From Cyanophora paradoxa CCMP329 (Eukaryota; Plantae; Glaucophyta), in the NCBI GenBank assembly GCA_004431415.1, contig QPMI01000165.1, positions 124,001 through 188,000 of the forward strand: 64,000 nucleotides of DNA. The letters are read 5' to 3'. Of this stretch, positions 22,765 through 64,000 are shown in pieces (within the stretch, counting starts at the first letter, position 1; every line of letters begins with the position of its first letter). The notes beneath the pieces are model-generated. The model was not told the origin of the DNA. It saw nothing but the letters and a program-made list of their open reading frames with translations, and did no database searches. The position numbers and the translations under genes are program-made.

Positions 22765-23100
22765 GACCTCGACTACTTCGGGGAACACCCCCGCGTCGTG
22801 CTCACATCCGACGTCGGCTACTGGCGCGAGCGGCTCGGGGGCATGCGGCCCCTCGAGGTGCGCCCCTCGGAGCGCCGCCACCAGTGGCACCCGGGCCTCA
22901 GCTACCGCCGGCCCCAGGACGAGCCGGGCGTGGCCTACGTGCAGTACAGCAGGCACTCGACCCCCGCCGAGCTGGCGGCCTTCGTGCTGGACCTGCGGCC
23001 GCGGGCGGTCCTCCTGCGCACGCCGCACGCGGGCCGCGAGGTCGAAGGCCGCTTCGGGGAGCTCCTGCGCTCCCAGCCCGTCGTCGCGGAGTGGGACTAG
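22765..23100 (+). pseudogene. C-terminal fragment of SNM1/Artemis-like beta-CASP (DRMBL) nuclease
   Basis: AYVQYSRHSTPAELAAFVLDLRPRAV resembles the V.YS.HSS..EL..FV..L.P motif. Confidence 0.55.
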
Positions 23101-23131
23101 CTGTCTGGATTCATCATCAACACACCGGTAC

Positions 23132-23430
23132 CTACAGGCAGTACGAGCACATGTCTACGCCCCAGATCTTGATGGTCTTCTTGCGGGCGGCGCCGGCCCC
23201 CGCGGGGTGGGGGTAGCGCGGGTAGACCCCCCACGTCTGCCCGGTGTCCACCCGGATGCCAAAGTGAGCGAACGGGCCCGCGTGGATGGCCGTGGAGAAG
23301 TTGTGGTGCTCGGGGTAGCCCTTCGCCCTGCACCAGGTGGCGAAGGCGTCCTTGAAGACGCCAACCGGGCACCAGATGGTCGGGTCGAGCCGGACGGCCT
23401 GCCCGTCGCGCAGGAAGGCATACATGCGGC
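23132..23430 (-). pseudogene. Fragment resembling the C-terminal winged-helix of NCLDV D5-like helicase-primase
   Basis: FLRDGQAVRLDPTIWCPVGVFKDAFATWC...HAGPFAHFGI...IWGVDM. Confidence 0.5.
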
Positions 23431-23529
23431 CTTCGTGCGACGACGCCCCGGCGGCCGCCGCATCGCGCCGGCGCCGCGCCTCGAGGTCCTCGATCTCCGC
23501 GGCCGAGAAGAAGCGAGCGGGCGCCGGCG

Positions 23530-24126
23530 ACGGCCTACTCGAGTCGCTCTTCCCCGTGCACGAGGATGCCAACCCGCCGGCCAGCGAGTGGGGGCTGCGT
23601 ACGGCCCCGGGCGCCGACCCGCTGACGACGGCGGCCGCCAAGAGGCGCGTGCGCACGATGCAGGGCGCCGTCGCGGCGGCCTGGGCCCTGCTGCGGACCG
23701 CCGACGGCAAGACCCTCGGCGAGGGGCCTCGCGAGGGGATCCTGGCGCAGGCGTGGGCGTGCATCCCGACCCTGACGCAGGCGAGCGCGCGTGCTTTGCC
23801 CGCGTGCCCGCAGCCCCCTAGCCTGATGCGAGGCGCGCCCGCAGGCCGTGGCGTTCCACTGCGAGGCGTGCCGTGCCGACTTCCGCGACCAGGGGTTCCC
23901 GCCGCCGCCGTTCGGGAGCTACCCGTTCGCCAACTCCCCCTTCGAGAAGCTCGGCGGCCCGCGCGGCGCGCTCTTGCGCGTGCGCGTCGGCGGGGAGCCG
24001 CTGCTCGAGCTCGGCGTGCCCTGGGGGCCGCTGCACCGCCCGCTGGACGACGTGGCGGGCCCCGGGGCGCGGCGCGGCTGCGTGCGGGCATCGCCGCGGG
24101 CCTGGAGTTCCTCGCCCAAATCGTGA
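23530..24126 (+). CDS. Hypothetical protein fragment with one GC-AG intron (23781-23844)
   Basis: ACG CAG|gcgagc...ctgat...ccgcag|GCC GTG joins two ORFs in frame (IPTLTQ|AVAFHCEAC). Confidence 0.4.
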
Positions 24127-24232
24127 CCGAGCTGGCGCGCGTCGCGGGGCTGGACACGGCCCCGGCGCCGGCGGGGCCGTCGGCGGCGCAGGCTAGCGCT
24201 GGGCCAATGTGATCTATATAATTCAAGATGGT

Positions 24233-24583
24233 GACAACACCAAGCCGGGCGCCTCCCGCGTCGAGGACGTCTGCTTCTGGTACAAGGCCGAACAGCACCC
24301 CTCCTTCCGCCTCGGCTCCATGGAGTTCTGGAAGTACCACCTCAAGCACTTCGACCCGGCCGCCGGCGACGGCCTCTCCTCCGACGAGGATGAGGGGGCG
24401 GCGATCGTCAGGGGCGGGGGAGGTGGCAGGGGAGGCCGCAGGGGCGGGGGCAACAGGGCCGTCCTGCACGTGCGGAAGATCGGGACGGCAGCGGAGGCGC
24501 CGGGCATCCGGCGGGGCGGGGGCGGCGGGGGCGGCACGGAGAGTGGCAATGACACGGGTGACGAGGACTTCGATGATGACTAG
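24233..24583 (+). pseudogene. C-terminal fragment of A32-like genome packaging ATPase
   Basis: DNTKPGASRVEDVCFWYKAEQHPSFRLGSMEFWKYH matches the NCLDV A32 C-terminal motif; Walker motifs absent. Confidence 0.75.
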
Positions 24584-26467: not shown

Positions 26468-26851
26468 GTTGCCGCTGGGGTCTTCGGCCGTCACGGCCCG
26501 CCTCGTCTGGCCCATCCCCGCGGGGGCCTGAAGCAGCACGCGGCCACCAGTGGGGGTCCGGAACTGCAGCGTGTCAGGGGCACCGGTGAGCGACCCTGAA
26601 GCTGTCTCGAAGGTGAGGGAGCCCGTCTGTTCAACGAGCCCCGGCGTCGTGTAGTGGCGGAAGCGGAGGCCGGACCCTGCGGCCGGCTGCCCCCCGCTGG
26701 CCGAGGCGCCCGTGCCCTCGCTGACGTCGTCCGCCTGGTTCAGCGTGATGATGCGGTCCGCCGTGGAGACGGCCTCGGCCGTCACCGTCGTGAGGTTCAC
26801 GATCGTGGCGTTGGACATGTTCACGGTGTCCAACGGGCCGCCAATCGTGAT
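26468..26851 (-). pseudogene. Internal fragment of a second fibre-protein paralog
   Basis: Nearly identical, with several substitutions, to ~50995-51377 (ITIGGPLDTVNMSNATIV...AEDPSGN). Confidence 0.9.
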
Positions 26852-27169
26852 AACTCCAGATTCACATGAACCGGGTCCGCTCCATACTCAACAACCCTGA
26901 AACCATGGAGGAGGGGTTGCGCCACGCGCTCGAGATGCACAGAGAGACGTACGCGATCATTCTTCAGATTACCAGGCTGGAGCAGCGGCTGTACGACGAC
27001 ACCGATGTCCGACATCTCGCTGCGGGTCGCCGTACATCTCGAAAGGCTGCAGAAGGCTACACGCGGCGAAACCGGTTCAAGTTCACAGCGAGCTCCAACA
27101 GTTCCGACCTGGCCCCCCCGGGCTCCCCCGGGCCCCCCCGGGCTCCCCCGGCCCCCCCGGGCTCCCCCT

Positions 27170-27635
27170 AAACCTCTCTGGCGGCACTGCAAGGGATACT
27201 CCAGTCCATCGGGCACGGTCATCCCAGCTGGCCAAGAACCGCCTGCCCTCCGGGTCCGTCTCTGAAGTGGGTGGGGGCGCCGGGCGATTTCGAGTGATCC
27301 CCAACTGCTGCAGCTGCACTTCAAGACGCCCCCACTCATCAAATCGCTCCAGCTGCTCCCGGACGACGTGCCAGAGCCTTATCACCTCTCGGTCAGACAT
27401 GGTCGGAAACAGGTAGGAAGATGGAGGATCTTTTATCTGTGCAAGATCTGCCCCTTGAAGCCACTCCAAAAGTATTGCAGGTGCGAGCTCAGGGAGAACG
27501 CCGCTGTCTGCTGTCAACCTGGCACGGATACTATCCTGGGTGCGGAGGAGATACAGGCCGGCCCAGAACAACGGACCTGAGCTTAACTCAATTGCAAGGA
27601 CGCGCGTGATGGCCCGGTCAAGGATGCCAGAGGTG
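27170..27635 (-). pseudogene. Hypothetical protein family 'EWLQGADL', paralog A (fragment)
   Basis: LLEWLQGADLAQIKDPPSSYLFPTMSDREVIRL; similar to pieces at 30809-31030 and 29730-29925. Confidence 0.55.
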
Positions 27636-28329
27636 GTTGATCTCTGCAGCAGCTCGGATTCGGAAAACGACGGGCAGCTGCCCCGCGGGCCCCCGGCGGC
27701 AGCGCCGAAGCCGCGGGCGGCGCCGGCCGCCGCAGCCGCAGCCGCGGCCCGCCCCGCAAGCGCACCGCCGCCCCCTCGCCCAAGTTCCCTGCAGCCCGCC
27801 AAGGCGGCAAAAAGTCGGGCGCCGCCTCCTCGTCGTCGGCGCCGCAGCAGCAGCAGCAGGCGCCAGGCGCCGCCTCCTCGTCGGTCCGCCCGCCCGCCGG
27901 CCCGCCCGCCGGCCGCGCGCTCACCAGGACGACCCTCGCAGCAGCGTGTCGTCCTCCAAATCCGCCCCTCGTTGCGCCGCTGCGACATCAGGACGCGCGA
28001 TCGGGCCGAAGAGGCGCCCCACGGCGACGCGCGCAAACAGCGCGCAGTCAGCGCCTTCAACCGAATGAAGACCGGCGCCCGGTGCACCGCCGAGGTGGCG
28101 GACACCACGTGCTCCCGTGAGCGCGCGCAACTGCGATGGCGGCCACGAGGAGGAGGGTGGCGGTGCCGGCGACGGCGGCAGCCACGGGAAAGCGCGGCAA
28201 AGCCACCGGCGGCGGTGCCCCTGCCCCCGGGCCAAGCGCTAGCGGGGCGGTGTCCGTCATGATCTCGTCTGTGTATGTGCCCGGAAAAATTGTCTTGGTC
28301 CGCTCTTGTCGCCCACCCTGCGTGCGCCC

Positions 28330-28662: not shown

Positions 28663-29735
28663 GGGCCGCCCTCCCCCCATCGCCTCGGTCGACGAGGACG
28701 AGGCCTGGCGCGATCGCTTCAGCCTCGCGCTGGGGCCCGAGTCGCCCGTCCAGATCCGCTCGACGGGCGACGGCACCTTCGCCGCCTACTACTGCCGCGA
28801 CGCGGAAGAGGAGCAGCCCGTGGTCTCAGAGGAACCCTTCTTCGCCGCCGTCATGGGGATCGCCGGCGGCGACGAGGCGGCCGGCCTGGCCTCCTCCATC
28901 TTCTCCGACAACGACGAGGTCCAGGCGTCGCTGGCCGCCCTGTGTATGCTGGGGCGGCCCTTCCGCCGCTGGCTCGCCCTCATGTACCCGCGCAAGGTGC
29001 ATGCGATCGTGTGCGTATGTACATACACATATACATACCCGAGCAGCTGGCGGGCTCCGACGCGGAGGAGGCGATCGCGGCCCGCAATACGCGGGCCGCG
29101 GCCATCCTGAAGGCCCCCGAGATCCTCGCCGCGCTCGTCGACCCCATGGTCTGTATATATACCACCCGTCCAGGGTGCCCGCCGCCCGCCCTCACCCGAC
29201 GCAGGTCCTGGAGGCCGCGGGGGCGGTCCAGGACCCCGCGTGGGTCCGGCACCTCGCCCTCAAAGTGGGGCTCAACGGCTGGCGGTTCGCGGTCAAGCCC
29301 CCCTGCCTGCCCGACGAGACCCCCTGCGACGACTGGCCCGTCGAGACGCGCTGCTTCTTCAAGCTCTCCTTCTTCAACCACAGCTGCGGTCCCTCCATCG
29401 GCAACCGCGGCTCGCTCGACCCGATCGTCAAGGCCCACGAGGGCGTTGCCAACGGCGACCGCCTCGCCGGCGAGGAGGCGACCCTCTCCGTGGCCCCGGC
29501 GATGATGATCCGGACGATGCTGGGGGAGCCCTGCCGCTGCCACGTCTGCGCCGACGCGGGGGCACGCAAGGAGCACGTCTTCCTGGACATGATGATCTTT
29601 ACGGAGGTCGGGCAGCAGATGGGGGTGCTGGCCGAGGACGAGATCGTCAGTGCGGCCAACCTCCGCAAGGTCATGGCCCTCATGAACCAGATGGACTCGG
29701 CCGCCATCTTGCAGGCCGCGGGGGCCCTTTTGCCA
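28663..29735 (+). pseudogene. SET-domain (SMYD-like) methyltransferase fragment with two introns (28997-29046, 29149-29204)
   Basis: LSFFNHSCGP, GEEATLS and post-SET CRCHVC; two phase-0 GT-AG introns restore the frame. Confidence 0.7.
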
Positions 29736-29925
29736 CCCCGTTCTTGTCGCTGAAGTGATCTCCCGGGAAGATGGATGTATCTGCATATGGGAAAAAGTCA
29801 ACGAAAGAACTGGACGGCCAGCCTCGAGCTTGAGGGTCCTCCATCATACTTTTGATTTGCCGGCAAAGGGCGATCACCTCCCGGTCGGGCATGGTCTTGA
29901 AGTATGTCGTCGAAACATCGTCCGG
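29730..29925 (-). pseudogene. 'EWLQGADL' family paralog B, downstream piece
   Basis: PDDVSTTYFKTMPDREVIALCRQIK aligns with KDPPSSYLFPTMSDREVIRLWHVVR of paralog A. Confidence 0.6.
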
Positions 29926-30677
29926 ATACCGAGGGGCGAGGTGCACGCCCTGCGGATCGAGGTGGGGGCGCTGCGGGCCGAGCTGGACCTCTTGCACGCC
30001 GCCGCCCTGCTGGCCCCCAGCGGCAAGGAGGAGGAGGAGGAGGAGGAGGAGGAGGTGGGCACGGAGAGGGACGCCTCGGAGGAGGAGGAGGAGGGGGAGG
30101 AGGAGGGCGCTCCGTCCGGTACCGGTGCCATCTCTCGCCTCTTCACGGAGATCTTCCGCCGCACCGCGGCAAACTGAATAGGCAATTGCAACATGTGCGC
30201 GCCCTCCCCCTGTGATTTTTATCGGCCTTTCCAGAAACAGGCACAACGACGGCACGATGGTCGCGGCCATCAACACGGCCTTCAACCTCTCCAACCCCTC
30301 TTCCCAGCTGAGGACGCCCCTCGGGCTCCCCGTCTTCGACAGCACGTTCATGCGCTCGCCCTACTTCTCCTACTCGGCCACCAATGGCGGGCCGCAGGCG
30401 GTTGCATTCGGCGCCCCGCCCCACATCCAGCAGGCCATCCTCCAGCAGGTGGCGGCGGCCGCTGCCCCCACCCAGGCCCCGCCGGCCCCGCAGCAGCAGC
30501 AGCAGCAGCAGCAGGCGGAGTTTCAGCAGCAGTCTTCGTCCGAGTACGGCGCCCACGCGTGCACGTGCGGTGGCGGCAGGCAGGCCGGCGGCCGGACTGC
30601 CGTGGCCCTCGCCCAGTACCATCACGGGCCTGCTGTACCCCCACCCCCTCCACGTCCGTCCGGCACCCCGCGCCCAC

Positions 30678-30810
30678 ATGTCATCATCATCGCGGGCACC
30701 GGCGCCGGCGCCCGACTGCTCCGTCTGCTGCCTGGCAACCAACCTCTCCAGCCGCAAGCTCTGTCGATGTGTATACTGCAAGTACATCGCCTGCCGCGCC
30801 TGCAACGAGA
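30678..30810 (+). pseudogene. NCLDV RING-finger protein, N-terminal piece
   Basis: MSSSSRAPAPAPDCSVCCLATNLSSRKLCRCVYCKYIACRACNE. Confidence 0.7.
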
Positions 30811-31030
30811 TCTGCGTCAGATCTGCACCCTGCAGCCATTCGATCAAGACGGCACAGCCCCTTTTCAGGCGCAGGTCACGAGGGGTTATCTGATCCCGGC
30901 TGCTTTCTCGAAGGTATGAGTTCATGGTGAACAGGATCTCTCGCGCCGGTGCCCCTTCAAAGCGGGGGGAAGCCGTCAACAAGAGTGCGGCCCTGCATAT
31001 CTGCTTCAACCGTGTCCCTTGCGAATCTTG
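30809..31030 (-). pseudogene. 'EWLQGADL' family paralog B, upstream piece
   Basis: ...RGCAVLIEWLQGADLTQI ends at the junction with the RING piece. Confidence 0.6.
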
Positions 31031-32099
31031 CCAGCGCGGCGAGGGCTCCGGGCTCCAGGACGGCAGTCGACGCGAGGAGGCGCTGCACCACCCCCCTCAC
31101 GTTGCTGCTGCTGGTCGTGCTTTTCACCTTGCCCTCCCACATCACCGCCCCCCCCTGCCCCTGCCGCTGCTGCTGCCTGTTCACAAGGGGCGCCACCGCA
31201 GCCGCGGGGTCGATCCACCTCTGCTCGAGCTGCTCCAGGTCGCTGGGCCTCAGCTGGTTCGAGAGGGTAGGGTAGAGGTAGTCCACGATGAGCCGATCGG
31301 CTCCCGGCAGCGCCTGCGAAGGGGCACCCTGTGCGGCCCCCATTCGTGTATTTCGATGATCTCTCACGATACAAAAAAGCTCAGGGGAGCGCCGTCATTT
31401 CCGGCGTGGAGTCGGTCGTTGGCGCCGGCGGCTTCTGCGTAGTACTGTTATCCAGACGGCGGGCCATCGCGACAACGATGTCCCGGACCACCTGGAGGAT
31501 GGAGTTACCCTGGACTCGGCCCGTCAGGGCAAGCCCCTCGGAGATCGCGGCAACCGCAGAGATAGCGACCAGGAAGCCGGTCTTGATGTTCTCCACGTAG
31601 GGGTCCCCCGTCGTGCAGGGGGCGGCGGCGGCGGCGGCGGCGGCCCGGGCCACGGCGGGTGCGGTGATGTTCATGCGGGGCCCGGGTGCGCACGGTGCCG
31701 GCGCGGGCGGCAGCGAGGCATCCGAGGCGAGGAAGTAGCCACCGCCCAGGGCCCTGGAGCGGATCAGGCCGAAGGGCGCATGCTGCTCGATCTCCCACCG
31801 CATCTCGAGGCGAGGGGGGTAGGCGATCTCGGCCCAGCGGGTGCGGTAGGGGCCGAACGCCGAGTACGCCAGGCACACCTGGGGGTTGCCCCGCGGCGTC
31901 AGGACGAAGAAGGAGCTGGAGGATGCGGTCGGCGGCCTCCACGCGACCATGTGCACGTCGGCCGCGCCGGGGGGGCGCAGGGGTACTGCTCACGGTGCGA
32001 GCGGGCGGCGCTCCACCCTTGGAAGAGCGCGGCCCTGTACGTGCCGTCGGATGCCTTGAATGCCTGAAACCCCGGGATCACTGTGCGCAGGGGGCCGCG

Positions 32100-32945
32100 C
32101 GTGAATGGGTGTGCGGAGGGGCAGGGGAAGCCCATTTGCTCAACCGACGGCAGCTGTGCCAACGGCTGCCCCCCCGGCTCCAGCCCCCTTCTTGGGTGTG
32201 CCGAGGGGCCCATCTGCTCGACCGACGGCAGGTGCGCCAACGGATGCCAGCCAGGGGCCTCGACCCTCTTCGGCTGTCCTGAGGGCGCGATCTGTTCGTC
32301 CAACAGCAAGTGCGGCAACGGGTGCCCCCCCGGTATCCCCCGTGTCTACGGCTGCTCCGAGGGCGTGGCCTGCTCAACCAGCGGGCTGTGCCTCAATGGA
32401 TGTAGGCCGGGCCTAGAGCCCCTGTACGGGTGCGCTGAGGCCCCCGCCGACAGCTTCATCTGTTCAAGGAACCAGCGGTGCGCGGACGGGTGTCCCCCTG
32501 GCGAGCCGCTCATTGTCTGCCCCGAGGGGGCGATCTGCTCGGCCACGGGAAAGTGCGCCAACGGGTGCGCCCCGGGCTCCATGCCCCTCTTCGGGTGCTT
32601 GGAGGGCAAAGGTGGCCCGATCTGCTCCTCCGATTGGAAGTGTGCCAATGGCTGCCGCCCCGGTTATGCCCCACTCCATGGTTGTGCAGAGGGGAACGGC
32701 GGCCCAATCTGCTCTGCCGGCCGCAATTGCGACAATGGGTGCCCCCCTGGCTACAGCCCCCTCTTTGGTTGCGAGGAGGGCAACATCTGCTCCTCCACCA
32801 AAAATTGCCGCAACGGCTGCCCCCCAGGGCACACCCCCATCACCGGGTGTACCGACGAGACGACCTGTACAGCAGACGGAAAGTGCAAGAACGGCTGCCC
32901 CCCCGGATTTGGCCTTCAACCGGGGGGGGCCTGCGTACAAGAAGT
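32100..32945 (+). pseudogene. Cys-rich tandem repeat protein fragment (C.NGCPPG..PL.GC.EG.ICS units)
   Basis: About ten 25-29 aa units; no N-terminus. Confidence 0.75.
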
Positions 32946-32965
32946 GCATCTCACCAACTTTGCAC

Positions 32966-33808
32966 GCGAGTGCGCGGGGCAGCCGTTGTCGCACACGGGC
33001 TTCTGCTGCCCCTTGAACCAGCACTCCCGGCACGTGTTGTTCCTGTCGAAGTCCGGAGGGCACCCTGTTGCGGGGCATACCGCCATGGGGGGTGCCCCCC
33101 TGGCCACGCAGATCCCGCAGCCAAAGTCAAGCTGCGGCACCTGGTAGGGGCACCTCGTCGCGCTGCAGACGGGCTTCTCCCTGCCCCGGGCCCAGCACTC
33201 TCCGCATGCATTGTTCCTGTCCTGGCCCGGGGGGCACCCCGTCCGGGGGCAGACTGCGGGGGTGAGCCCGCCCAGAGTGCAGTCTCCGCACAGGTTGGGG
33301 CTCTGCCCCGGCGGGCACCCCGTCGTGGGGCAGATCGCCGACGGCTGGTTTGCAGCCGGGACGCACTCCGCGCACCCGGCGCTGTAGACCTGCCCCGGCG
33401 GGCACCCCGTCGAGCGGCAGATCGGTGGCGGGGGGAAGCCCCTGGGGGCGCACTCACGGCAGGGGTTGTTCTTGTCCTGTCCGGGCGGGCACCCCGTGCC
33501 TGGGCAGGTCCCGTCCGGGCTTTCGATGCGCCCCCCAAGGGTACACTCCCCGCACGCATTTTGGAGCTGGTCGTGGGAGGGGCAGCCGGTCGAGCAGCTG
33601 TTGGGGGCCCGCCCCCTTGGCAGGCACTCGCGACAGGCCTCGGACCAGAACTCGGTGGGGCGGCATCCGTCGGGGCAGTAGTCTGGGGCGACCCCCGATG
33701 GGAAGCACGCGCTGCACGGGTTGTTGCGGTCCTGGCCGGGGGGGCAGCCCGTACCGGGGCAGAGGGCTGGAGTCCTGCCCCCCAGCGTGCACTCGCCGCA
33801 CCCATTGA
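32966..33808 (-). pseudogene. Second Cys-rich repeat family fragment (CP.TGCPPGQD.NN.C.EC)
   Basis: Same repeat as 56675-57682; apparent frameshifts. Confidence 0.7.
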
Positions 33809-33809
33809 C

Positions 33810-34314
33810 GTAGAGGGTTCTTCAAAAACTCGGACCGCCCGCACAGCCCGCCAACCGGTATTGCCGAGAACCCGAACACCTGGTGCATTGCCCTCGCCCA
33901 GGTCGGCCCATGCCACCTGTCGTCACCGCTGGCTCCCCACTCATCGTCGCTCGATCCGTCTTGAATTGCCGCCAGGAGGTGGCATATTTCGTGCGCTAGG
34001 ATATGGAGCAATGTCGACAGCAGCGGCAGGATGCGCCTGCCGCTGCTGTCCGAAAAGGGCATCGCGGCCCAGTAGAGCTTCATCTCGTCCTCCGCCCACT
34101 TGTTTGTGTTCAGAACCATCGTGCCCCATGAAGAAGGCAGGGTGAACGCCAGGTCTGGACGAGCTCTGATGTTGAGATTTAGGAGATCACCCAAGGCGGG
34201 CTTGTTAAAAGTGCCCATCCACCACCCTGTGAACGTGCCGCGGAAGAACGCCCTGTCGATGGCCTCGATGGCCGGGATGACGTGGTCGCTCACCGTGATC
34301 TGGGAAGGCTGCAT
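33810..34314 (-). pseudogene. SprT-like zinc metalloprotease fragment
   Basis: IDRAFFRG...ILAHEICHLL...WHGPTWARAM (HExxH plus downstream HG..W). Confidence 0.65.
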
Positions 34315-34352
34315 GAGCGGGTCGAAGAGGCCCTGCGCCTACCCGGCCGCCG

Positions 34353-36076: not shown

Positions 36077-36425
36077 CGACGAACTTCATGATCATCACCC
36101 TCCTTCATATAAGGGCAGATTCAGCGGGGCTTGTGAGAACACGAATCTAAGGTGATCCAGTTTTCGAGAGAGGGGCAGTGCGACGAGAGCGGCAGACGGA
36201 CACCGCCCTTTTTGACGGAGCATGACACGGACTGAAACTGGACTACACTAGATTCATGTTCTCACAAGCGGAGGCAGTTCAGCCTATATAGAACCGAGGT
36301 GCATCGAGCAACATCGCTCGCGACCCGACCCCCCCTCTCGACGAACTTCATGATCATCACCCTCCTTCATATAAGGGCAGATTCAGCGGGGCTTGTGAGA
36401 ACACGAATCTAAGGTGATCCAGTTT
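36077..36425. repeat. Non-coding repeat block 1: 262-bp period with internal imperfect inverted repeat
   Basis: 36077-36163 repeated at 36339-36425; core GCTTGTGAGAAC at 36129(+), 36269(-), 36391(+). Confidence 0.9.
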
Positions 36426-37822: not shown

Positions 37823-37959
37823 TGCACTCCACTGCACGCCGCCCGCCCCCCCCCCACCGCCCTCCACACCGCCCCACTCAGCCCCACCCAGCCCGCGGCC
37901 CTCCCCCCTACCCTCCCCTACCCCTCCCCCGGGCCCCCTCCCCCCCCTACCCGCCCAAC

Positions 37960-40880: not shown

Positions 40881-40980
40881 GGCTTGTAGATATATAGATA
40901 GTAGCGTAGGTAGCTTGGGCGCGTTGAAAAATTATCTCATAGAGTAAGCACACTGCACTTCGCGCTGTGGCACAATAACC

Positions 40981-49536: not shown

Positions 49537-52414
49537 CTATATACTGCCGGGTTGGGTGATGTTGCCGAAATCTGTCGCCCCGGTCTCGCCCGTGGCGCCC
49601 CCCACGAAGAGGTTGCGGCTGATGTAGGCACCGCCGCGGCAGACCAGGGCTCCAGTGGGTGCTGTCGCCCCCTGCGTTGTGTTTGTGATCGTCACCACGC
49701 CCCCGATTGCGGCGGTCCCGTTCGTCAGGGTCATCGTTCCGTTCGTCGAGCTGTAGTTGCCCGTCACCGTCACAGAACCCCCCAGCGTTGTAGCCCCCGT
49801 CACGCCCAAGGTGCCCCCCACCGAGGTGTTGTTGGACAGCGTCGCGACCCCCGTCACCCCGAGCGTACCCCCAACGGAGGCATTGGCCAGCGTCGTGTTC
49901 CCCGTCACCCCGAGCGTCCCCCCCACCGAGGCATTGGCCAGCGTCGTGTTCCCCGTCACCCCAAGCGTGCCTCCTACCGAGGCGTTCCCCAGCGTGGTCG
50001 CCCCTGTCACCCCAAGCGTACCCTTCTTGTCATCTTCGGCGCGGGAACGCTTGGAAGAGGACCTGTGCGCGCGCACGGGCCGGCGATCGGAACCGGACGG
50101 GGGCGCGGGCCGCGCGCGCTGCGAGCTGCTGTGTAGGTGCACTTACATGCCTGGAGCCGAGCTGGAGCCGCGCTGGAGGCGAGATGACGTGGCACCAACG
50201 ACGTACCCCCCCTCAATGACGTACCCCGTCACGCGGTCGCATCCGATGTGTGGGCCCGGGCGCACCGAACGCTTACGATACGCGCGCGACGGCTCTGAAG
50301 AAGCTCTTCTGCGCGCGCGGCAGGCCCCTGGGCCGCGCTGGAGGCGAGATGACGTGGCACCAACGACGTACCCCCCCTCAATGACGTACCCCGTCACGCG
50401 GTCGCATCCGATGTGTGGGCCCGGGCGCACGTGGTTGAGCCTGTGACCCCAAGTGTACCCCCAACGGAGGTGCCGGCCAGCGTCGTGGCCCCCGTCACCC
50501 CAAGCGTGCCCCCCACAGAGGCGTTCCCCAGCGTGGTTGCCCCGGTCACGCCAAGGGTACCCCCCAACGTGGTTGCCCCTGTGACCCCGAGTGTTCCCCC
50601 CACCGATGTGCCGGCCAGCGTCGTGGCCCCCGTCACCCCAAGCGTGCCCCCCACAGAGGTGTTCGCCAGGGTGGTCGCCCCGGTCACGCCAAGGGTACCC
50701 CCCAGCGTGGTGGCCCCCGACACGTCCAGGGTGCCCCCCACCGAGGCGCTGCCCCCTGTCAGGGTCAGGTCACCCTCCTGCGACGTGTAGTCGCCAGCCA
50801 CTGTCAGGGGGCCGCCCAGCGTGGTGGCGCCCGACACGTCCAGGGTGCCCCCCACCGAGGCGCTGCCCCCCGTCAGGGTCAGGTCACCCACCTGCGACGT
50901 GTAGTCGCCGGCCACTGTCAGAGCTCCTCCCAGCGTGGTGGCCCCGGACACGTCCAGGGTGGCCCCCACTGAGACAGCCCCCACAACGGCAACGTTGCCG
51001 CTGGGGTCTTCGGCCGTCACGGCCCGCCTCGTCTGGCCCATCCCCGCGGGGGCCTGAAGCAGCACGCGGCCACCAGTGGGGGTCCGGAACTGCAGCGTGT
51101 CAGGGGCGCCGATGACCGACCCTGAAGCTGTCTCAAAGGTGAGTGAGCCCGTCTGTTCAACGAGCCCCGGTGTCGCGTAGTGGCGGAAGCGGAGGCCGGA
51201 CCCTGCGGCCGGCTGCCCCCCGCTGGCCGAGGCGCCCGTGTCCTCGCTGACGTCGTCCGCCTGGTTCAGCGTGATGATGCGGTCCGCCGTGGAGACGGCC
51301 TCGGCCGTCACCGTGGTGAGGTTCACGATCGTGGCGTTGGACATGTTCACGGTGTCCAACGGGCCGCCAATCGTGATGGTCGTTGGGATCGCGTTGTTTG
51401 CGCCCACGTGCCCGATGGTGATTTCCCCCACGTCGGGCGCGCTACCAATGCTGATCGAGTTCGCCCCTGGCGGTGCGTCCAGCGACGCAGAGAAGAGGCC
51501 GCTGGTTGTCAGCAGGGACCCCGTGACCGAGACGGTGTTGTTGGGGCCGCTGGCGACGATAGACGAGGCATGGAGATCCCCAAGGCTATCGAGTGTACCC
51601 GTCACACTGAGTGTGTTCAGCGTTGTGTTTCCCGACACCCCCAGGGTGCCCCCCACCGAGGTGTGCCCCAGTGAGGTCGCCCCCATCACGCTCAGGGTTC
51701 CCCCTACCGAGGCGTTCCCCAGCGTGGTCGCCCCCGTCACACCGAGCGTACCCCCAACGGAGGTGTTTGTCAGCGTCGTAGCCCCTGCCACCCCAAGCGT
51801 ACCCCCAACGGAGGTGTTGGCCAGCGTCGTGGTCCCTGTGACCCCAAGCGTGCTCAGCGTCGTGTTCCCCGTCACCCCCAGGGCGCCCCCAACCGAGGCG
51901 TTTGCAGCCAGCGTGGTAGCACCCGTCACCCCAAGCGTACCTCCAACGGAGGTGTTGGTCAGGGTCGTACCACCCGTCACCCCGAGTGTACCCCCCACCG
52001 AGGTGTTGGCCAGTGTCGTGGCCCCCGTGACCCCAAGCGTGCTTAGCGTCGTGTTCCCTGTCACGCCCAGGGTGCCCCCGACCGAGGTGTTCGCCAGGGC
52101 GGTCGCCCCGGTCACGCCCAAGGTACCATCCACCGAGGTGTTGGCCAGAGTCGTGGCCCCTGTAACCCCAAGCGTGCTCAGCGAGGTCCCCCCCGTGACC
52201 CCGAGGGTGCCTCCCACCCTGACATTGGCTAGCGTCGTATCACCTGCCACGCCCAGGGTACCCCCAACGGAGGCATTTGCAAGCGTCGTCGCCCCCGTAA
52301 CCCCGAGCGTACCTCCAACCGAGGCGCTGGCAAGCGTGGTATTCCCTGTCACGCCCAGGGTACCCCCGACAGAGGCGCTGGCCAGCGTTGTGGCCCCCGT
52401 GACCCCGAGGGTGC
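49537..52414 (-). pseudogene. Virion fibre-like protein with VGGTLGVTGATTL repeats; 5' truncated and interrupted at 50023-50429
   Basis: Dozens of 11-17 aa beta-repeats; ADRIITLN and TGALVCRGGAYISRNLFVGG motifs typical of phage/NCLDV fibres. Confidence 0.8.
50167..50430. repeat. Exact 99-bp direct repeat (50167-50265, 50332-50430) with 66-bp spacer
   Basis: GCCGCGCTGGAGGCGAGATG...GGGCCCGGGCGCAC occurs twice. Confidence 0.95.
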
Positions 52415-54782: not shown

Positions 54783-55083
54783 GCACGCCAGCTTCCGCCC
54801 CACGGGCGACATCACCGGGACCCCCACCCTGGTGCAGAACCACTTCAACGGCCGGTGGGGCGGCGAGGAGCGCCGAACATACGCGAGCCTCGGCATCACC
54901 AGCGGCGCGGCCCCCTGGGCCCTCTACTTCGTCATGGACGCGGCCAGCTTCAAGATCTACCGGGTGGACACCTCGCCCCCGCAGCTCGTCTCCACGTTCA
55001 ACAACCGCATGCCCTCCACGCCCATTGTGCGCTTCGAGTCCGGGCCCTACGCTTGCACGCGGGTGCTGTTCGCGGTACCCTAG
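54783..55083 (+). pseudogene. Galectin-like domain, C-terminal fragment (paralog of 58132-58743)
   Basis: HASFRP...LVQNHFNGRWGGEERR...FNNR; near-identical 3' end to the intact copy. Confidence 0.7.
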
Positions 55084-55779
55084 CAGGTCACACAGAGGCC
55101 AGAAGGTCGAAGGTGAACGCCACGGCAAGGTAGTACTGTTGTTCTGTTCCCCTTGGTCAGCCTGGCGCACCACCCGGCCTGCTCCGTCCCGCAGATGGCG
55201 TCCCCGTGGTGCACGAGCTGGTAGATCGGGACCTCCAAGTCGATCTCGGGCGGCATGATAGTGGGAGGATGCGCTCACAGGGCTGCTAGACACGGTATAT
55301 CCTGTAGTATAATATCAACAACACTACGGACGTGGGGTATTCCTACTCGCGATCGCGCCCGTGCCGTCCTGCTGCCTTGTGTCCCGCATGACGCGCAGGA
55401 CCGTATCGAAGAGGTAGGTGGGCCGACCCCAGCGCGTGTCGACGATCACGACAAAGAACCCCTCGCGGCGGAACTGGGGGATCATGCGCGCGTCCGGGGC
55501 TGCCACCGTGGTCGCCTGGAACCCCAGGCTGCCCCCTGTGTCGCAGTCGGTTGGCCCTTGGACCCGTGCCTCGTCTTCAACACGCGCACACACAAGTACA
55601 GGGTCCGGGGCACGTGCCCTGAGTGCGGGCGCCGCATCTCCTCGTTCTGCTCCCCCGACCACTGGCGCGACGTCCCCTTCGAGCGTCTGCAGGTCGGGTT
55701 GCCGCCGCCGCCGGCCGCCGCCACCGCTACCCCCCGCCGCCCCCGCCGCCGGGGGCCGGCCGAGGCAGCAGCTGGAGGA

Positions 55780-56280
55780 TCCGGTCCACCTTCTTGATCG
55801 CGGAGAGGGACCGGCCCGAGACGCCCGGGGCGACGTTGCGCGGCGGCGGCGAGGGGGGGCGCGGCGCCGCCTGCTGCTGCTGCTCGCCGCCGCCCTGCTG
55901 CTCCCCCCCGTCGCCCTGCTTCTTCTTCTTTGGCGCCGGCGGTGGGCCCGCCCCGGGAAAGAGGAGCGAGTAGAGGCCGCCGTCCATCAGGCGCGGCCGC
56001 GACTTGAACTCCGAGCACTTCCCCTCCCGCCGCCCCTCGGTCGTGTCGCACCGGCAGTAGCACAGCTGACGGGCCCCGCTGACGCCGATGACGAAGTACA
56101 CGTTGTTGTTGTTGTGCTCCGGGGGCTGCTTTGTGAGGTTCTCGCACCAGCGGCTCGTGGAGCGCGCCGTGTACGAGCGCTTCTTGCCGTTGCCGTCGTT
56201 CGCCCACGCCGCCGTGATCTCGGGTCGCCCGGGGAAGGCGTTGACGATGAAGTTGCGGATCGACTGGAAGAGGCACTCTG
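55780..56280 (-). pseudogene. PrimPol/AEP primase C-terminal Zn-ribbon (UL52-like) fragment of NCLDV type
   Basis: STSRWCENL...EHNNNNVYFVI...QLCYCRCDTTEGRREGKCSEF...LYSLLFP. Confidence 0.72.
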
Positions 56281-56399
56281 ACGAGCTACAGCATACACCA
56301 TGGCGGTGGAGGGGAGAGGTGCGGAGGAGGAGGAGGAGGATGAGGAGGAGGAGGAGGAGGAGGAGGAGGAGTCTTTGGACCCCCCTGCCGCCGCGGCCG

Positions 56400-57864: not shown

Positions 57865-58084
57865 GGCCGTTGGATGTAATGCCATGTCGCTCCGGGGGCT
57901 GCCCCGTGCATATTGTCGCGTACGACGTGCGGGATACGGTGGGGAGGGGCGCAAGGGCGCGCCGGACCCATCCACGGCCCTGCCGGACGAGGGATTCGAC
58001 GTATCCCAGCTCCTGGCGGGCGACGTCGTACCGAAGGCCGTCTACGATGACGAGGATCACGCCAAATCGTCCTTTGCGGGGCAT
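57865..58084 (-). pseudogene. Alkaline phosphatase superfamily (nucleotide pyrophosphatase-like), N-terminal piece
   Basis: VILVIVDGLRYD...LPTVSRTSYATICTGQPPERHGITSN. Confidence 0.8.
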
Positions 58085-58131
58085 CGGTGTTTTTACACTG
58101 AGCGATTATTTTTAGTGAAAGGGTGAGATCG

Positions 58132-58743
58132 ATGGCGCTCCCCTCCGAAGGCCCCATCTCCTTCGGCGCGATCCGGAGCGCCCTGAACGGCCCGCCGGTG
58201 GGGAGGCCCTCCCCCATGTCGCTCTACTGGGGGGCCACGAACGGCGTGCCAACCTCGGGCCCCCTCAGCTTCTCGCACTTCCGCGGCAGGGCCCCGCTGC
58301 GGTCCGTGGGGGGCAGTGCCGCCGTGGTCGACCCCGCCCTGAGCGTCTACGGGATGCGCTTCCTCTTGCAGTGCTCGGACGGGACCGCGGGGGGCAGCCT
58401 CAACTTCTTCGGCCACGAGAGCAACTTCGACCCCCTCGTCTACCACGGCAGCTTCCGCCCTTTCGGAAACGTCCAGAGCCCCAACATCGTGCAGAACACA
58501 TTCAGCGGGGGGTGGGCCTGGGAGGAGCGCCGCACCTACGGGAGCTTCGGCATCACCAACACCACCGCGCCCTGGGCCCTCTACTTCGTCATGGACGCGG
58601 CCAGCTTCAAGATCTACCGGGCGGACACCTCGCCCCCCCAGCTCGTCTACACGTTCAACAATCGCTTTCCGTCGACGACGCCCATCCGGCGCTTCGAGGC
58701 GTCGCCCTACACGTGCACCCGGGTGCTGTTCGCGGTGCCCTAG
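58132..58743 (+). CDS. Virion-anchor peptide plus galectin-like carbohydrate-recognition domain (intact ORF)
   Basis: N-terminal LPSEGPISFGAIR...VPTSGPLSFSHFRG (viral structural-protein leader); YHGSFRP...IVQN...GWAWEERR...FNNR. Confidence 0.68.
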   Translation: MALPSEGPISFGAIRSALNGPPVGRPSPMSLYWGATNGVPTSGPLSFSHFRGRAPLRSVGGSAAVVDPALSVYGMRFLLQCSDGTAGGSLNFFGHESNFDPLVYHGSFRPFGNVQSPNIVQNTFSGGWAWEERRTYGSFGITNTTAPWALYFVMDAASFKIYRADTSPPQLVYTFNNRFPSTTPIRRFEASPYTCTRVLFAVP

Positions 58744-58949
58744 GTCGCGGCGCGATATGCTGCCGGCACAGGCGCGCGGTGCGTGCCCTAGATGACGGAG
58801 AACACCACGGCCAGATGGTACTCGAGCGGGGGAAGCGGCGGCTCAGACGACGAGGGCCGAATCGCCCGCGGGGCGTCTAGAACTTTCTCACAGCCCGTCT
58901 TCGCGGGGCGACGTCTTCTCACAGCATGGCGGCCGCCACCGGCGCCCCG

Positions 58950-59157
58950 CTGCCCTCCGAAGGCCCCATCTCCTTCGGCGCGATCCGGAGCGCCCTGAAC
59001 GGCCCGCCGGCGGGGACGCCCTCACCCATGTCGCTCTACTGGGGGGCCACGAACGGCATGCCAACCTCGGGCCCCCTCAGCTTCTCGCACTTCCGCGGCA
59101 GGGCCCCGCTGCGGTCCGAGGGGGTCGGCGTCGTGGTCAGCCCCGGCCTGAGCTGTC
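58950..59157 (+). pseudogene. N-terminal fragment of another anchor/galectin paralog
   Basis: Near-identical to 58138-58305. Confidence 0.8.
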
Positions 59158-59345
59158 AGGGTACCCCCCAGCGTGGTGGCCCCCGACACGTCCAGGGTGC
59201 CCCCCACCGAGGCGCTGCCCCCCGTCAGGGTCAGGTCACCCTCCTGCGACGTGTAGTCGCCGGCCACTGCCAGGGGGCCGCCCAGCGTGGTGGCCCCTGA
59301 CACGTCCAGGGTGGCCCCCACTGAGACAGCCCCCACAACGGCGAC
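59158..59345 (-). pseudogene. Fibre paralog fragment continuing 26468-26851
   Basis: VAVVGAVSVGATLDVSGATTL... homologous to ~50993 downward. Confidence 0.85.
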
Positions 59346-59706
59346 CCACCTCGAAGGCCCGGACCGCGTCGGGCACGCCTCGGGCCCCGGCCGGGACTAC
59401 CACCAGGCCGTTGAGGCGATCGACGAGCTCCTCGGGCTCTACCTGCCAGAGTGGCTCAAGACGCACCACGTCGTGATCACGGCCGACCACGGCATCGACC
59501 GGCACAGGAGCCATGGCGGTACGGGGAAGGCGCTCAGGCACGTCCCGTTGTACTTCCTGCCATCTGGATCCGGATCATCGCGACCCCCGCCCCCGCCGCC
59601 CCCCGACCCCGTCGACGTCCCGCTTGAGGCGGTCGCCGGCATTGTGATTGGTGCACTGGCGCCCGCGTCCCGCGGGCGATCGATATCCTCCACGCATCGA
59701 TCATGA
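59346..59706 (+). pseudogene. Alkaline phosphatase superfamily, C-terminal piece
   Basis: HLEGPDRVGHASG...VVITADHGIDRHRSHGG...VPLY. Confidence 0.8.
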
Positions 59707-60353: not shown

Positions 60354-60476
60354 CACCACCTCTCCACCACGCAGGTCCCGCACTGCATGAACTGCAGGAA
60401 GGAGTGGTCGCCCGAGTTCCTCGACACCGTGACGACTAAGGCCTTCCGTGAAGGCCCCCTGAAGCAGAAGCGCCTC
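60354..60476 (+). pseudogene. NCLDV RING-finger protein, second piece
   Basis: HHLSTTQVPHCMNCRKEWSPEFLDTVTTKAFREGPLKQKR. Confidence 0.7.
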
Positions 60477-61030
60477 ACCGTCAGCGCTACTAGCTACTTT
60501 CGCGTCCCCTTCTTCCTCTTCCCCCCCTTCTTCGTCACCGACGGCTTCGTGCCCGTCTCCTCCTCCTCCTCCGCCTCCGCCTCCACCCCGCCCGCCGCTG
60601 CCGCCCCTGCTTCCACCCCTACCGCCCCCACCGCCGCGGCGGTGGCGGCGGTCACGGGGAGCCCCGCCTCCGCCGCCGCGGCGACCATGGACGCCGCCAT
60701 CTCGTCGCCCTCCGGCCCCGCCATCTCCCGCTCCACCAGGGTCCGCACGTCGTCTGCAAACCCGCTTGAGAGCAGCTTCCCGATGGCCGCGGGGCCCGGG
60801 AGGCCGCCGGAGAGCGCGGTCGCCATCTCGGGGGAGGCCGCAGGGGGAAGCGGGGCGGCGGCAGGCGGGGCGGCGGCGCGGCGGGGGCGGCGGGTCGACG
60901 GCCGGCGGCGGCGGCAGCGCTGGCGGCCCGCCGGCGCCGGCCGCGGCCGCCTCGACGGCGGGGGCGCCTCTGCAACGACGACGACGGCGGCAACAAAGAA
61001 GGGGACCGTCAGCGTCGTGTTCTAGCTCGT

Positions 61031-61544: not shown

Positions 61545-62145
61545 ATGGGGGGTACAGTTATATTTTATCTACAGAATACTCTACCCCGCGACCGAAAGCG
61601 GATGGACGAATACAGTCGCGCCATCGTAGCGAGCCTTCCGCGCCGGTACCAAGCCGGCGCAAATGCGCTGTATGTGCCACCCGGCGAGGTCGACCGGAGC
61701 GTCTCGGGCGTGCAATTCATGGAAGAGCGCGAAACGAATTGGAGAGGATGGCTCATTAGTGGTTCGGACAGCTATAGGGTTCCTGTGGTCGGAAAGCTCT
61801 CGGCATGGCCAGCGGGCCCCTCGAGTTTGAGCTCCGAAGACTGGATGCACCTAAATGACACGGTGACAGGGCTTGTCATTCAGCAGAGGGCCTTCGGTTA
61901 CAGTGCCAGGTATCCAGTTGCAGCACGCCCCATCATGTGGACCGTGCTGAAGCAGGCGCATCCAAGGGCACAGGGCGCGCTTAGCAGACTAGGCGAGTCC
62001 CCGCTCGAGGGGCCATTGGTCTGGATTGAAATCATCATGGAGGATGCGGGCCCCTCCATCAAAAGGCTTATCCAGGACAGGCAGATCAGCCTTGCTTCAT
62101 CAGAGGGCACTGGAAGGGACCTCATGAGGAGCCTGGTGAGACGAT
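61545..62145 (+). pseudogene. Possible protein-kinase-like N-lobe fragment
   Basis: WIEIIMEDAGPSI resembles a kinase hinge; truncated by a Cys-repeat piece. Confidence 0.3.
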
Positions 62146-62640
62146 GGCCCCCTCCACACATCCGTTGAGCGGGCTGGAGCCCGGGGGGCAGCCGTTGGCA
62201 CACGTGCCGTCCGTGGAGCAGATGGGCTTCCCCTGCCCCTCCGTGCACCCGTTCAGGGGGCTGGATCCGGGGGGGCAGCCGTTGGCACACCTGCCGTCGG
62301 TCGAGCAGATGGGCCCCTCGGCGCATCCACTTAGGGGGCTGGAGCCGGGGGGGCAGCCGTTGGAACACCTGCCGTCTGTGGAGCAGATGGGCTTCCCCTG
62401 CCCCTCTGCACACCCGTTCACGGGGCTGGAGCCGGGGGGGCAGCTGTTGGCGCACCTACCGTCGGTGGAGCAAACCGGTTTTCCCTGCCCCTCTGTGCAC
62501 CCGTTCAGGGGGCTGGAGCCCGGGGGGCAGCCGTTGGCACACCTGCCGTCGGTTGAGCAAATGGGCTTCCCCTGTCCCTCTGCACACCCATTCACGGGGC
62601 TGGAGCCCGGGGGGCAGCCGTTGGTGCACATGCCGTCGCA
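62146..62640 (-). pseudogene. Cys-rich tandem repeat fragment (CANGCPPGSSPLNGC.EGQGKPICSTDG)
   Basis: Six near-identical 78-87 bp units; same family as 32100-32945 but on the opposite strand. Confidence 0.8.
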
Positions 62641-62686
62641 TGTTGATTGTCTGTCGCCCAGCGCTGAAAAAAAGTCGCACGTACAC

Positions 62687-63721
62687 CTAGGACCGCCACT
62701 TGATCCGCTCCTGCAGGTCGCGTTCGTCGTCGATCGAGACGCCGCCCCCGTGCCACCGCCTGAGGATCTCGAGGGCCGGCCCGTCGTAGTAGCCGCTGGC
62801 CAGCACGGAGCGCCGGACGTCGCGCGCTGTCACGCGGCTGAAGGCGTCGTGGACCGCCAGCGAGACGTTCAGGCGCCGCCGCCGCATCAGGGCGGAGATC
62901 CTGCGCTTCACCTTGCCGAAGATGCGCTCGATCGGGTTGAACTGCGGCGAGTAGGGGGGCACGTAGTCCAGGGGGCTCGTCTGCTTGCCGTGGCGGTCAA
63001 GCCGCGGGCGGGGGTCCCGCCCCAGGAGGACGCGGGCGAGCTCCGGGATCGCCGGGTCGTTGGGGTTCGCCGCCGCCCTCGCCGGGATGCCCCCCACGAT
63101 CCCGTTCCAGTTGGCCTTCTTGTCGTGGTAGGAGGCCCCGTCCATGATCAGCACCTTCCCCTCGACGAACGACTGCGGGAGGACGCTCGCGATGAAGTCC
63201 CTGAACCACGGCTTCGTCTTGCTCACGGGGTACCCGTAGTTGTCCTCCTTGTGTATCAGGAGGCGGGCCTTGCCCCTGCTCCAGCGCCGGTCGCGGCGGC
63301 CCGGCCTCGCCGCCTTCTGCCGCGACGCTGGGCTCATCCACTCGAACGGTTCTTTCTCCAGGAACATCTCCACCATCATCTTCCTGTCCATTTCGTCCAG
63401 CCGTTCGTCGGGGTCCGGGTTGCCCTCCTCTCCCCCCCTTGCGTGCTTCTTCACCCACATCATGGAGAGGAACTTCCGGACGTTGCCGATCGGGAACGGC
63501 CGCCCCGGCCGCCTCTTTCTCAGCTGCTGCAGCACCCATTCGCGGTTATTCCGTGCCCACCCCGTCACCACCGCCGCCTGCCCGGCGTCCTCGGAGGGGG
63601 GCTGGGGCACATTCTGTGGCTTCACCTCATCCCCGCTGCCGGTGCCGGCGCCTACATGCTCCCCGACAAGACCGCCGTCGCTCCTGTTCCGGTTTGCCAC
63701 CGGCACCTCAAGTTCTGCCAT
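62687..63721 (-). mobile_element. IS630/Tc1-mariner DDE transposase-like ORF (N-terminal half may be chimeric)
   Basis: KVLIMDGASYH and YVPPYSPQFNPIERIFGKVKRRI; no TIRs recognised. Confidence 0.75.
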
Positions 63722-63759
63722 GGCATATCCTCCCTCACTTTCTCACAGGTAAAGGGCGC

Positions 63760-63997
63760 TGCTGTCCTGGCCACGTTGGAGGCCGCCCTGGCACGTGTTC
63801 GCAAGGTCGACATCCACGGGCGCACGTGGATCTCTGCGTTGGACTGGTGCGCGGAGATTGCAGGCGGAGAGCACACAAACCCTTCGAAGATCTGGCACGA
63901 CATGAAGGACAAGGTGAAGGTGAGTGAAGTTTCATGTATCCCCCTCAAGTACCTAGGAGCCCGGTCGAGGCGACCTAACTTTTTAGAAGACACTTAG
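63760..63997 (+). pseudogene. BRO-N-like DNA-binding domain fragment
   Basis: VRKVDIHGRTWISALDWCAEIAGG...NPSKIWHDMK. Confidence 0.5.
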
Positions 63998-64000
63998 CAG

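What the first reader, a model, noticed from the sequence alone, without database searches (positions are those of the whole stretch)
22765..64000. A giant-virus genome shattered into short pieces and re-stitched in shuffled order inside a host chromosome
Seen: almost every recognisable viral core gene (MCP, A32, A22 resolvase, YqaJ, PrimPol, D5-like) is an abruptly cut fragment joined to an unrelated fragment, often on the other strand. Most pieces keep open frames, and the neighbouring host genes at 1-18 kb are collinear. Complementary pieces of the same gene occur elsewhere in the window with little or no loss (see the fibre, RING, EWLQGADL and phosphatase findings). Known: endogenous giant viruses usually decay through point mutation, deletion, duplication and TE insertion. 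Inference: balanced fragmentation and religation, a chromothripsis-like event acting on viral DNA, probably at or soon after capture. It would inactivate the virus while preserving its sequence.
Basis: partly seen in the sequence, partly recalled or inferred. Interest (0 to 1): 0.93.

Follow-up and report, generated by a model that had tools for sequence, protein, structure and literature searches.

The report
Shattered, re-glued giant virus in alga
A stretch of giant-virus DNA beside intact host genes of a likely algal chromosome is made of roughly 1-kb pieces joined out of order, with matching halves of some broken genes up to 33 kb apart and almost no bases lost, likely because one viral genome was cut up and glued back by the cell's end-joining repair.

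Summary
Confirmed and real where tested. From 22,765 to the window end, NCLDV DNA is a mosaic with at least 38 joins (median spacing 855 bp). MCP, A32, PrimPol, YqaJ-like, D5-like and NifS genes are cut pieces. In 21.5-41.4 kb, contigs of 4 of 4 public runs cross 10 of 18 listed joins unbroken at even depth; 20 runs hold 99-100% of sampled words of 38.0-47.9 kb; 47.9-64 kb was not checked against reads. Four of six split genes have both partner ends in the window with 0 to about 9 bp lost; one pair abuts with 0 gap and 0 overlap, 32.9 kb apart. Even depth plus abutting ends point to one genome copy; no stop in 3,394 codons points to a young event. Corrections: order is not random (4 of 7 partner ends within 1.5 kb; two genes keep order and strand around an insert), two genes lack their middles here, and a 2.9-kb host duplicate belongs to the mosaic. 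Best reading: burst of breaks in one viral genome, blunt end-joining with ends held close. A known repair outcome (chromothripsis, complex numts, biolistic arrays) on a substrate for which eight literature searches found no report.

The parts
13370..18200 (.). Native host genes: Rieske/PaO gene (-) and F-box/LRR-like gene (+); source of the duplicate
   Evidence: Pfam Rieske E 1e-11, PaO E 2e-8; sequence read; ends approximate
19830..22764 (.). Host duplicate of 14297-17245 forming the left end of the mosaic; interrupts a host gene whose 3' part lies at about 18.4-19.8 kb (kinase-like by recalled motif, not confirmed by Pfam)
   Evidence: 97.3% identity, 32 mismatches mostly in the first 500 bp; read depth 3.1-3.5x the viral pieces
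22765..64000 (.). Mosaic of NCLDV pieces, at least 38 joins, right end beyond the window
22765..23100 (+). C-terminal piece of a DRMBL-type nuclease, fused in frame to the cut host F-box/LRR gene
   Evidence: Pfam DRMBL E 0.00095, below curated cut-off; sharp host end
23132..23520 (-). D5-like C-terminal piece
   Evidence: Atlas 0.96, Pox_D5 clusters
24233..24583 (+). A32 packaging ATPase, C-terminal piece (homologue residues 196-250 of 275)
   Evidence: E 9e-10
26468..26851 (-). Fibre paralogue B, piece 1 (matches fibre A 50994-51377)
   Evidence: 97.7%; both versions in reads (table 3)
27083..27640 (-). EWLQGADL-family paralogue B, used as yardstick
29701..29925 (-). EWLQGADL-family gene A, second piece
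   Evidence: aligns to B from residue 90 on, shuffle p 0.003
29926..30808 (+). 883-bp insert splitting gene A; ends with the N-terminal piece of a RING protein (30678-30808)
   Evidence: RING piece = homologue residues 14-44; both joins bridged in 4 of 4 runs
30809..31100 (-). EWLQGADL-family gene A, first piece
   Evidence: aligns to B residues 75-89
32100..33813 (.). Tail-to-tail pieces of two Cys-rich repeat gene families (+ then -)
33814..34340 (-). SprT-like protease piece
   Evidence: Pfam E 1e-6
36077..37835 (.). Two cut, mutually inverted pieces (36077-36425, 37205-37835) of a non-coding array with TATA-like units
   Evidence: no Rfam match
40195..40885 (-). A22-type resolvase, start apparently missing
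   Evidence: Atlas 0.93; missing start judged by eye
43221..43877 (+). Central piece of the major capsid protein
   Evidence: Pfam Capsid_N, Capsid_NCLDV
43878..44826 (+). Internal piece of a class-V aminotransferase, in frame after MCP
44827..45168 (-).
   Evidence: 52% to P0153, residues 18-130 of 202
49546..52412 (-). Fibre paralogue A, head missing, split by an insert at 50024-50430 that holds a 104-bp tandem duplication
54785..55083 (+). C-terminal piece of a paralogue of the intact gene 58132-58743
   Evidence: 85%
55730..56284 (-). PrimPol-type primase, C-terminal zinc-finger piece
   Evidence: homologue residues 350-405 of 470, E 5e-10
57866..59153 (.). Piece holding phosphatase N-half (-), intact gene 58132-58743 (+) and the N-part of its paralogue (+)
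59158..59345 (-). Fibre paralogue B, piece 2; ends at fibre A position 50993, abutting piece 1
59346..59700 (+). Phosphatase C-half (homologue residues 161-242)
60357..60482 (+). RING protein, second piece (homologue residues 48-78)
62687..63712 (-). DDE_3 (IS630-like) transposase gene, open frame
   Evidence: Pfam E 5e-10

Best explanation
The region is giant-virus DNA cut into pieces of about 0.1-4 kb and joined out of order at even single-copy depth, likely because one viral genome copy suffered many double-strand breaks in a short time and was re-ligated by the host's blunt end-joining repair while its ends were probably held close together. Shown: the pieces, sharp ends, abutting partner ends, even depth, read support in 21.5-41.4 kb. 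Inferred: (1) one molecule, since pieces from many replicating copies would overlap and vary in depth rather than abut; (2) classical NHEJ, from 0-2 bp shared at the five joins where it can be judged; (3) tethered or stepwise repair, since loose pieces were captured between the two ends of a break in two genes; (4) the product and a copied 2.9-kb host fragment were ligated into a nearby host gene, at or soon after capture; (5) the result cannot make virions because MCP and A32 are split, unless intact copies too diverged to share reads exist elsewhere. The cutting agent (host nuclease, viral nuclease, micronucleus-like damage) is unknown; no cut-site motif was found.
For: Fibre-B pieces abut on paralogue A with 0 gap, 0 overlap, 32.9 kb apart; A and B differ mostly at silent sites (12 of 20 codons, P 0.003 against an assumed neutral share of 0.28), so B is a viral paralogue, not a later copy. 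EWLQGADL-A 0 codons, RING at most 3 codons, fibre-A 4 bp lost. Seven longest viral contigs per run lie within 63.5-73.9 (X1), 99-116 (X13), 76-99 (X20), 90-106 (X8) depth and cross 10 of 18 listed joins unbranched. 0 stops in 18 pieces, 10,182 bp: fewer than about 105-125 substitutions at 95%, against about 9 joins per 10 kb. Host genes at 1-19.8 kb are not broken at this scale. Same join types and displaced genomic fragments at three copies are reported for shattered lambda DNA in rice (10.1101/379644, passages).
Against: Order is not random: 4 of 7 partner ends lie within 1.5 kb (P 0.0008) and 2 of 6 split genes keep order and strand around an insert (P 0.002-0.008); both tests are post hoc and near partners are easier to notice, but they fit several rounds of rearrangement as well as tethering. 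2 of 6 split genes lack their middles here. Small duplications exist (104 bp at 50162/50328; the host 2.9 kb). Microhomology was judged at only five joins. The stop-free count is partly built in, because pieces were delimited as open frames. No intact relative exists to tile against (best MCP identity 43%; one search found no locus). All 20 holder runs are flagged as possible sources and may be one campaign on one culture line. 47.9-64 kb is unchecked against reads.
Confidence: 0.6

Rival explanations
1. The virus integrated intact and was then rearranged step by step, by many small balanced inversions and cut-and-paste moves in silenced chromatin, over many generations.
For: Local bias of partner ends and inserts nested inside genes are what successive events give; gradual recombination and dispersal of viral inserts is described in Acanthamoeba (PMC12210455, passages).
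Against: Needs about one balanced join per 12 or fewer substitutions, almost no base loss, no host transposons seen in 41 kb by reading, and a sharp stop at the host boundary; CpG is not depleted (O/E 1.00).
Confidence: 0.2
2. The viral genome was already scrambled as a defective genome inside the infected cell (viral nucleases or recombinases), and only the finished mosaic was captured.
For: Breaks are confined to viral DNA; the virus encodes YqaJ-like, A22 and other nucleases.
Against: Defective genomes come from replicating pools and should give repeats and uneven copy number; depth is even and partner ends abut.
Confidence: 0.08
3. Replication-based template switching (MMBIR/FoSTeS, chromoanasynthesis) copied viral and host templates in jumps.
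For: The 2.9-kb host duplicate from 2.6-5.5 kb upstream and the 104-bp tandem duplicate.
Against: Switching does not leave both partner ends abutting at 0 bp; shared bases 0-2 at five joins; no viral copy gain in 22.7-41.4 kb.
Confidence: 0.07
4. Assembly or amplification chimaeras.
For: The window has single-base indel errors against reads (table 4); library types are not on record; runs may not be independent; 47.9-64 kb is untested.
Against: Contigs of 4 of 4 runs cross the same joins at full depth and agree with each other against the window's indels, so they are unlikely to be its source; 20 runs hold 99-100% of words in 38.0-47.9 kb; amplification chimaeras differ between libraries (general knowledge).
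Confidence: 0.03
5. Programmed, reversible scrambling as in ciliate germlines, so that the virus can be unscrambled on reactivation.
For: Near-complete retention of partner ends and open frames.
Against: No pointer repeat at the fibre-B break (0 overlap), 4 bp lost at fibre-A, no shared motif at 8 mapped breaks, no branch to an unscrambled form in the contigs shown.
Confidence: 0.02

Closest known systems
Shattered lambda arrays after biolistic transformation of rice and maize (10.1101/379644; passages seen)
   Same: Foreign DNA in pieces mostly under 2 kb, blunt or 1-4 bp joins, mixed orientations, displaced host fragments that end up at three copies.
   Different: Artificial, tens of donor copies (37 copies, 552 or more pieces in one event), near-uniform orientations; here natural, apparently one copy, with abutting partner ends and local bias.
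Complex numts/nupts and mosaic numins (PMC6215612, PMC11372161; passages seen)
   Same: Extra-chromosomal DNA pieces from different places and orientations captured together at a break by NHEJ.
   Different: Usually a few pieces from multi-copy organelle DNA (two to four pieces in the yeast assay); here 38 or more joins from a virus, with both sides of original breaks kept.
Chromothripsis (10.1101/2023.08.10.552800, abstract and outline; definitions in PMC13390643, passages)
   Same: Clustered breaks re-ligated by NHEJ.
   Different: Substrate is foreign viral DNA; host genes next door are spared; pieces are about 1 kb; order is locally biased.
Giant endogenous viral elements (Acanthamoeba, PMC12210455; Cyanophora and others, PMC12344493; passages seen)
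   Same: NCLDV core genes inside a eukaryotic chromosome, non-functional.
   Different: Described decay is point mutation, mobile elements, deletion, duplication, recombination and dispersal; here frames are open, bases are kept and order alone is destroyed.

Membership tests
Giant endogenous viral element (Nucleocytoviricota) | NCLDV hallmark genes | tested here: met
   MCP, A32 and primase, A22 and D5-like, DUF5760; all as pieces
Giant endogenous viral element (Nucleocytoviricota) | Contiguous with host chromosome | tested here: inconclusive
Giant endogenous viral element (Nucleocytoviricota) | Silenced or methylated | not testable with these tools
   No methylation data used
Chromothripsis (criteria recalled) | Dense cluster of breakpoints next to unbroken DNA | tested here: met
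   38 or more joins in 41 kb, median spacing 855 bp; none recognised in 1-19.8 kb
Chromothripsis (criteria recalled) | Random order and orientation of pieces | tested here: not met
   4 of 7 partner ends within 1.5 kb; 2 of 6 genes keep order and strand; post hoc, small n
Chromothripsis (criteria recalled) | Blunt or 1-4 bp joins | tested here: met
   0, 0, 2, 0-1 and 0-1 (or 4 unassigned) bp at the five joins that can be judged
Chromothripsis (criteria recalled) | Two copy states (kept or lost), no gains | tested here: inconclusive
   Kept viral pieces at even depth; losses cannot be told from pieces outside the window; host piece is gained
Chromothripsis (criteria recalled) | One event on one haplotype | not testable with these tools
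   Needs related strains and phased long reads
Complex numt/nupt or biolistic-type array | Many foreign pieces from different places joined end to end at one host site | tested here: met
Complex numt/nupt or biolistic-type array | Donor is organelle or delivered DNA present in many copies | tested here: not met
   Donor is viral; even depth and abutting ends indicate one copy
Chromoanasynthesis (MMBIR/FoSTeS) | Copy gains and microhomology at switches | tested here: not met
   No viral gain in 22.7-41.4 kb; 0-2 bp shared; only the host piece and a 104-bp piece are duplicated
Ciliate-type scrambled genes | Short direct-repeat pointers at partner ends | tested here: not met
   0 overlap at fibre-B, 4 bp lost at fibre-A

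The most novel reading that the evidence does not exclude
The host has a shred-and-religate defence: an incoming giant-virus genome is singled out in the nucleus, cut about every kilobase and sealed into the chromosome by end-joining, which disarms it in one step, stores nearly all of its sequence as a possible silencing template, and creates in-frame chimaeric genes; other viral insertions of this host would show the same balanced pattern while host DNA is spared.
Probability: 0.15. Interest if true: 0.92.

Novelty: new variant of a known kind. Interest (0 to 1): 0.74.

Why it matters
Why most endogenous giant viruses are dead while a few stay latent is an open question, usually answered by silencing followed by slow decay. 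This locus shows a different route: gene order destroyed while bases and reading frames are kept. It gives dozens of mappable natural joins for reading the repair pathway of a little-studied algal lineage, makes one-step versus gradual inactivation testable with strains and long reads, and warns that gene models over such regions are false fusions (P0001 joins MCP to an aminotransferase; P0154 carries the DRMBL piece) that can pass into protein databases as novel architectures or gene transfers.

Tried and rejected
Self-tblastx was swamped by sum statistics and not used. Missing MCP ends, A32 Walker A part, resolvase start, YqaJ tail and phosphatase middle were sought in six frames and not found. 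Restriction-type cut motif: none shared at 8 mapped breaks. Coding-strand switches at joins (19 of 25 opposite) rejected as a test: same-strand joins are harder to see. The 'first run outside = 0' column is set by how ends were placed and is not a microhomology measure. Joints table 5 (15 shown, 215 not shown) have sides of 18-29 letters in GC/CAG repeats and were treated as noise. No RNA holder listed. Rfam: nothing in 35.9-38 kb. Earlier scan notes: nothing on this genome or sequence; five loosely worded hits not relevant. Host kinase label not confirmed by Pfam.
Full report
SETTING. The window is about 70% GC and holds no N. Bases 1-19.8 kb carry intron-rich host genes, among them a Rieske/PaO gene, so the host is likely a photosynthetic eukaryote; the intron style recalls the glaucophyte Cyanophora, which is recalled and was not tested.

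THE OBSERVATION. From 22,765 on, genes are intron-free and cut. The MCP piece covers residues 114-328 of its best homologue (405 aa, 43% identity), a profile from the 370-480-aa homologues finds no other MCP part in six frames, and the frame runs on into an internal aminotransferase piece, which meets a YqaJ-like piece tail to tail. A32 and primase are C-terminal pieces. A22 and D5-like labels are supported by Atlas features, not by Pfam (13 of 82 segments had a family at E 0.01 or better, some of them spurious). I listed 38 joins, partly by eye; median spacing 855 bp, range 125-4,377 bp, a lower bound on their number. Fourteen piece ends have a near-identical template in the window and are sharp.

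ARTEFACT TEST. Twenty runs, coded as 20 samples and 20 studies, all 2024 and one organism label, hold 0.99-1.00 of 1,049 sampled words of 38.0-47.9 kb. Seven listed joins lie there; if all were false the share would be about 0.98, so this is modest support and one or two false joins would not show. Four of the 20 runs were laid on 21.5-41.4 kb. The tool flags all 20 runs as possible sources, and they may be one campaign on one culture line. Still, the four runs agree with each other against the window at single-base indels, one of them in unique viral sequence (27778), so the window is unlikely to be built from them. The stretch 47.9-64 kb and the join at 19830 remain unchecked against reads.

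COPY NUMBER. The seven longest viral contigs per run have even depth, and the host duplicate has 3.1-3.5 times that depth. This fits a diploid with a hemizygous insertion or a haploid with a third copy elsewhere; single-copy host depth was not measured.

PARTNER ENDS. Six genes have two pieces in the window. Fibre-B: 59158-59345 and 26468-26851 map on fibre-A to 50993 and from 50994, so 0 bp lost and 0 duplicated, 32.9 kb apart; A and B differ at 20 codons, 12 silently. EWLQGADL-A: pieces align to paralogue residues 75-89 and from 90, compatible with no loss, on either side of an 883-bp opposite-strand insert. RING: homologue residues 14-44 and 48-78, 29.5 kb apart; its first piece ends exactly at that insert's right edge. 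Fibre-A: split by about 400 bp, 4 bp short against an internal repeat, partner ambiguous because the gene is repetitive. Phosphatase: halves 1.5 kb apart on opposite strands, residues 79-160 absent. The paralogue of 58132-58743: two pieces 4.4 kb apart, about 100 bp absent. The non-coding array at 36-37.8 kb gives a seventh, looser pair. Shared bases can be judged at five joins and are 0, 0, 2, 0-1 and 0-1 (or 4 unassigned). Eight mapped breaks share no motif.

AGAINST PURE RANDOM SHUFFLING. Four of 7 partner pairs lie within 1.5 kb (P 0.0008 for uniform placement) and 2 of 6 genes keep order and strand around a short insert (P 0.002-0.008 for 40-100 pieces). These tests are post hoc and near partners are easier to spot, yet they suggest that ends were held together while loose pieces were captured between them, or that there were several rounds.

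AGE. Eighteen pieces (10,182 bp) hold no stop; at 2.4-2.8% stop-making changes this bounds substitutions at about 1.0-1.2%, with the caveat that pieces were delimited as open frames. CpG O/E is 1.00 in the viral part and 1.04 in the host part.

MECHANISM. Even depth with abutting ends argues for one molecule; blunt joins argue for classical end-joining; intact host genes next door argue that the breaks were aimed at, or confined to, viral DNA, most simply before or during insertion. The left end is a host fragment copied from 2.6-5.5 kb upstream and ligated into another host gene, like the displaced genomic fragments in biolistic arrays. The cutting agent is unknown. Confidence 0.6; stepwise rearrangement after integration is the main rival (0.2).

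WHAT IS KNOWN. The repair outcome is known from chromothripsis (abstract, passages), complex numts and numins (passages) and shattered lambda arrays (passages). Giant-virus insertions are reported for Cyanophora without description of their internal order in the passages seen, and Acanthamoeba insertions decay by mutation, mobile elements and recombination, a gradual breaking-up and dispersal. Eight searches found no report of a balanced, kilobase-scale scrambled giant virus; 'endogenous giant virus' with 'chromothripsis' gave 0 papers. The library lacks most subscription journals, and no supplements were read; those of PMC12344493 may show such regions.

VERDICT. Real where tested, a new variant of a known kind: it works like chromothripsis or complex-numt capture but fails the random-order and multi-copy-donor tests, so it is filed under neither. 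Interest 0.74; a dedicated shred-and-religate defence remains possible (0.15).

Noticed in passing
window 36077-36425 and 37205-37835: Non-coding array of about 65-bp units, each a TATA-like box plus a conserved core, in tandem and head-to-head; could be a viral origin or terminal repeat. No Rfam match.
   Followed up: partly
window 26-35 kb versus 54-62 kb: Five gene families have pieces in both zones (fibre-B, RING, two Cys-rich families, a CxxC family), three of them in the same left-to-right order; suggests one viral segment was shared between two zones of the mosaic.
   Followed up: no
window 19830-20330: Most of the 32 mismatches between the host duplicate and its source lie in the first 500 bp; may come from a third copy or another allele.
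   Followed up: partly
window 24580, 38670, 62687: Convergent genes end on a shared four-base palindrome that gives a stop on both strands; looks like native viral gene packing inside pieces (read).
   Followed up: no
window 28330-28662: Short half-MIP (aquaporin-like) gene of about 110 aa with its own start and stop, Pfam MIP positions 9-107 of 222.
   Followed up: no
window 43878-44826 and 57866-59700: Bacterial-type class-V aminotransferase and alkaline-phosphatase-family genes among the viral pieces (35-45% to plasmid genes); intron-free, probably viral cargo.
   Followed up: partly
P0001, P0154: Automatic gene models in a public protein set reproduce two of the chimaeras as single proteins.
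   Followed up: partly
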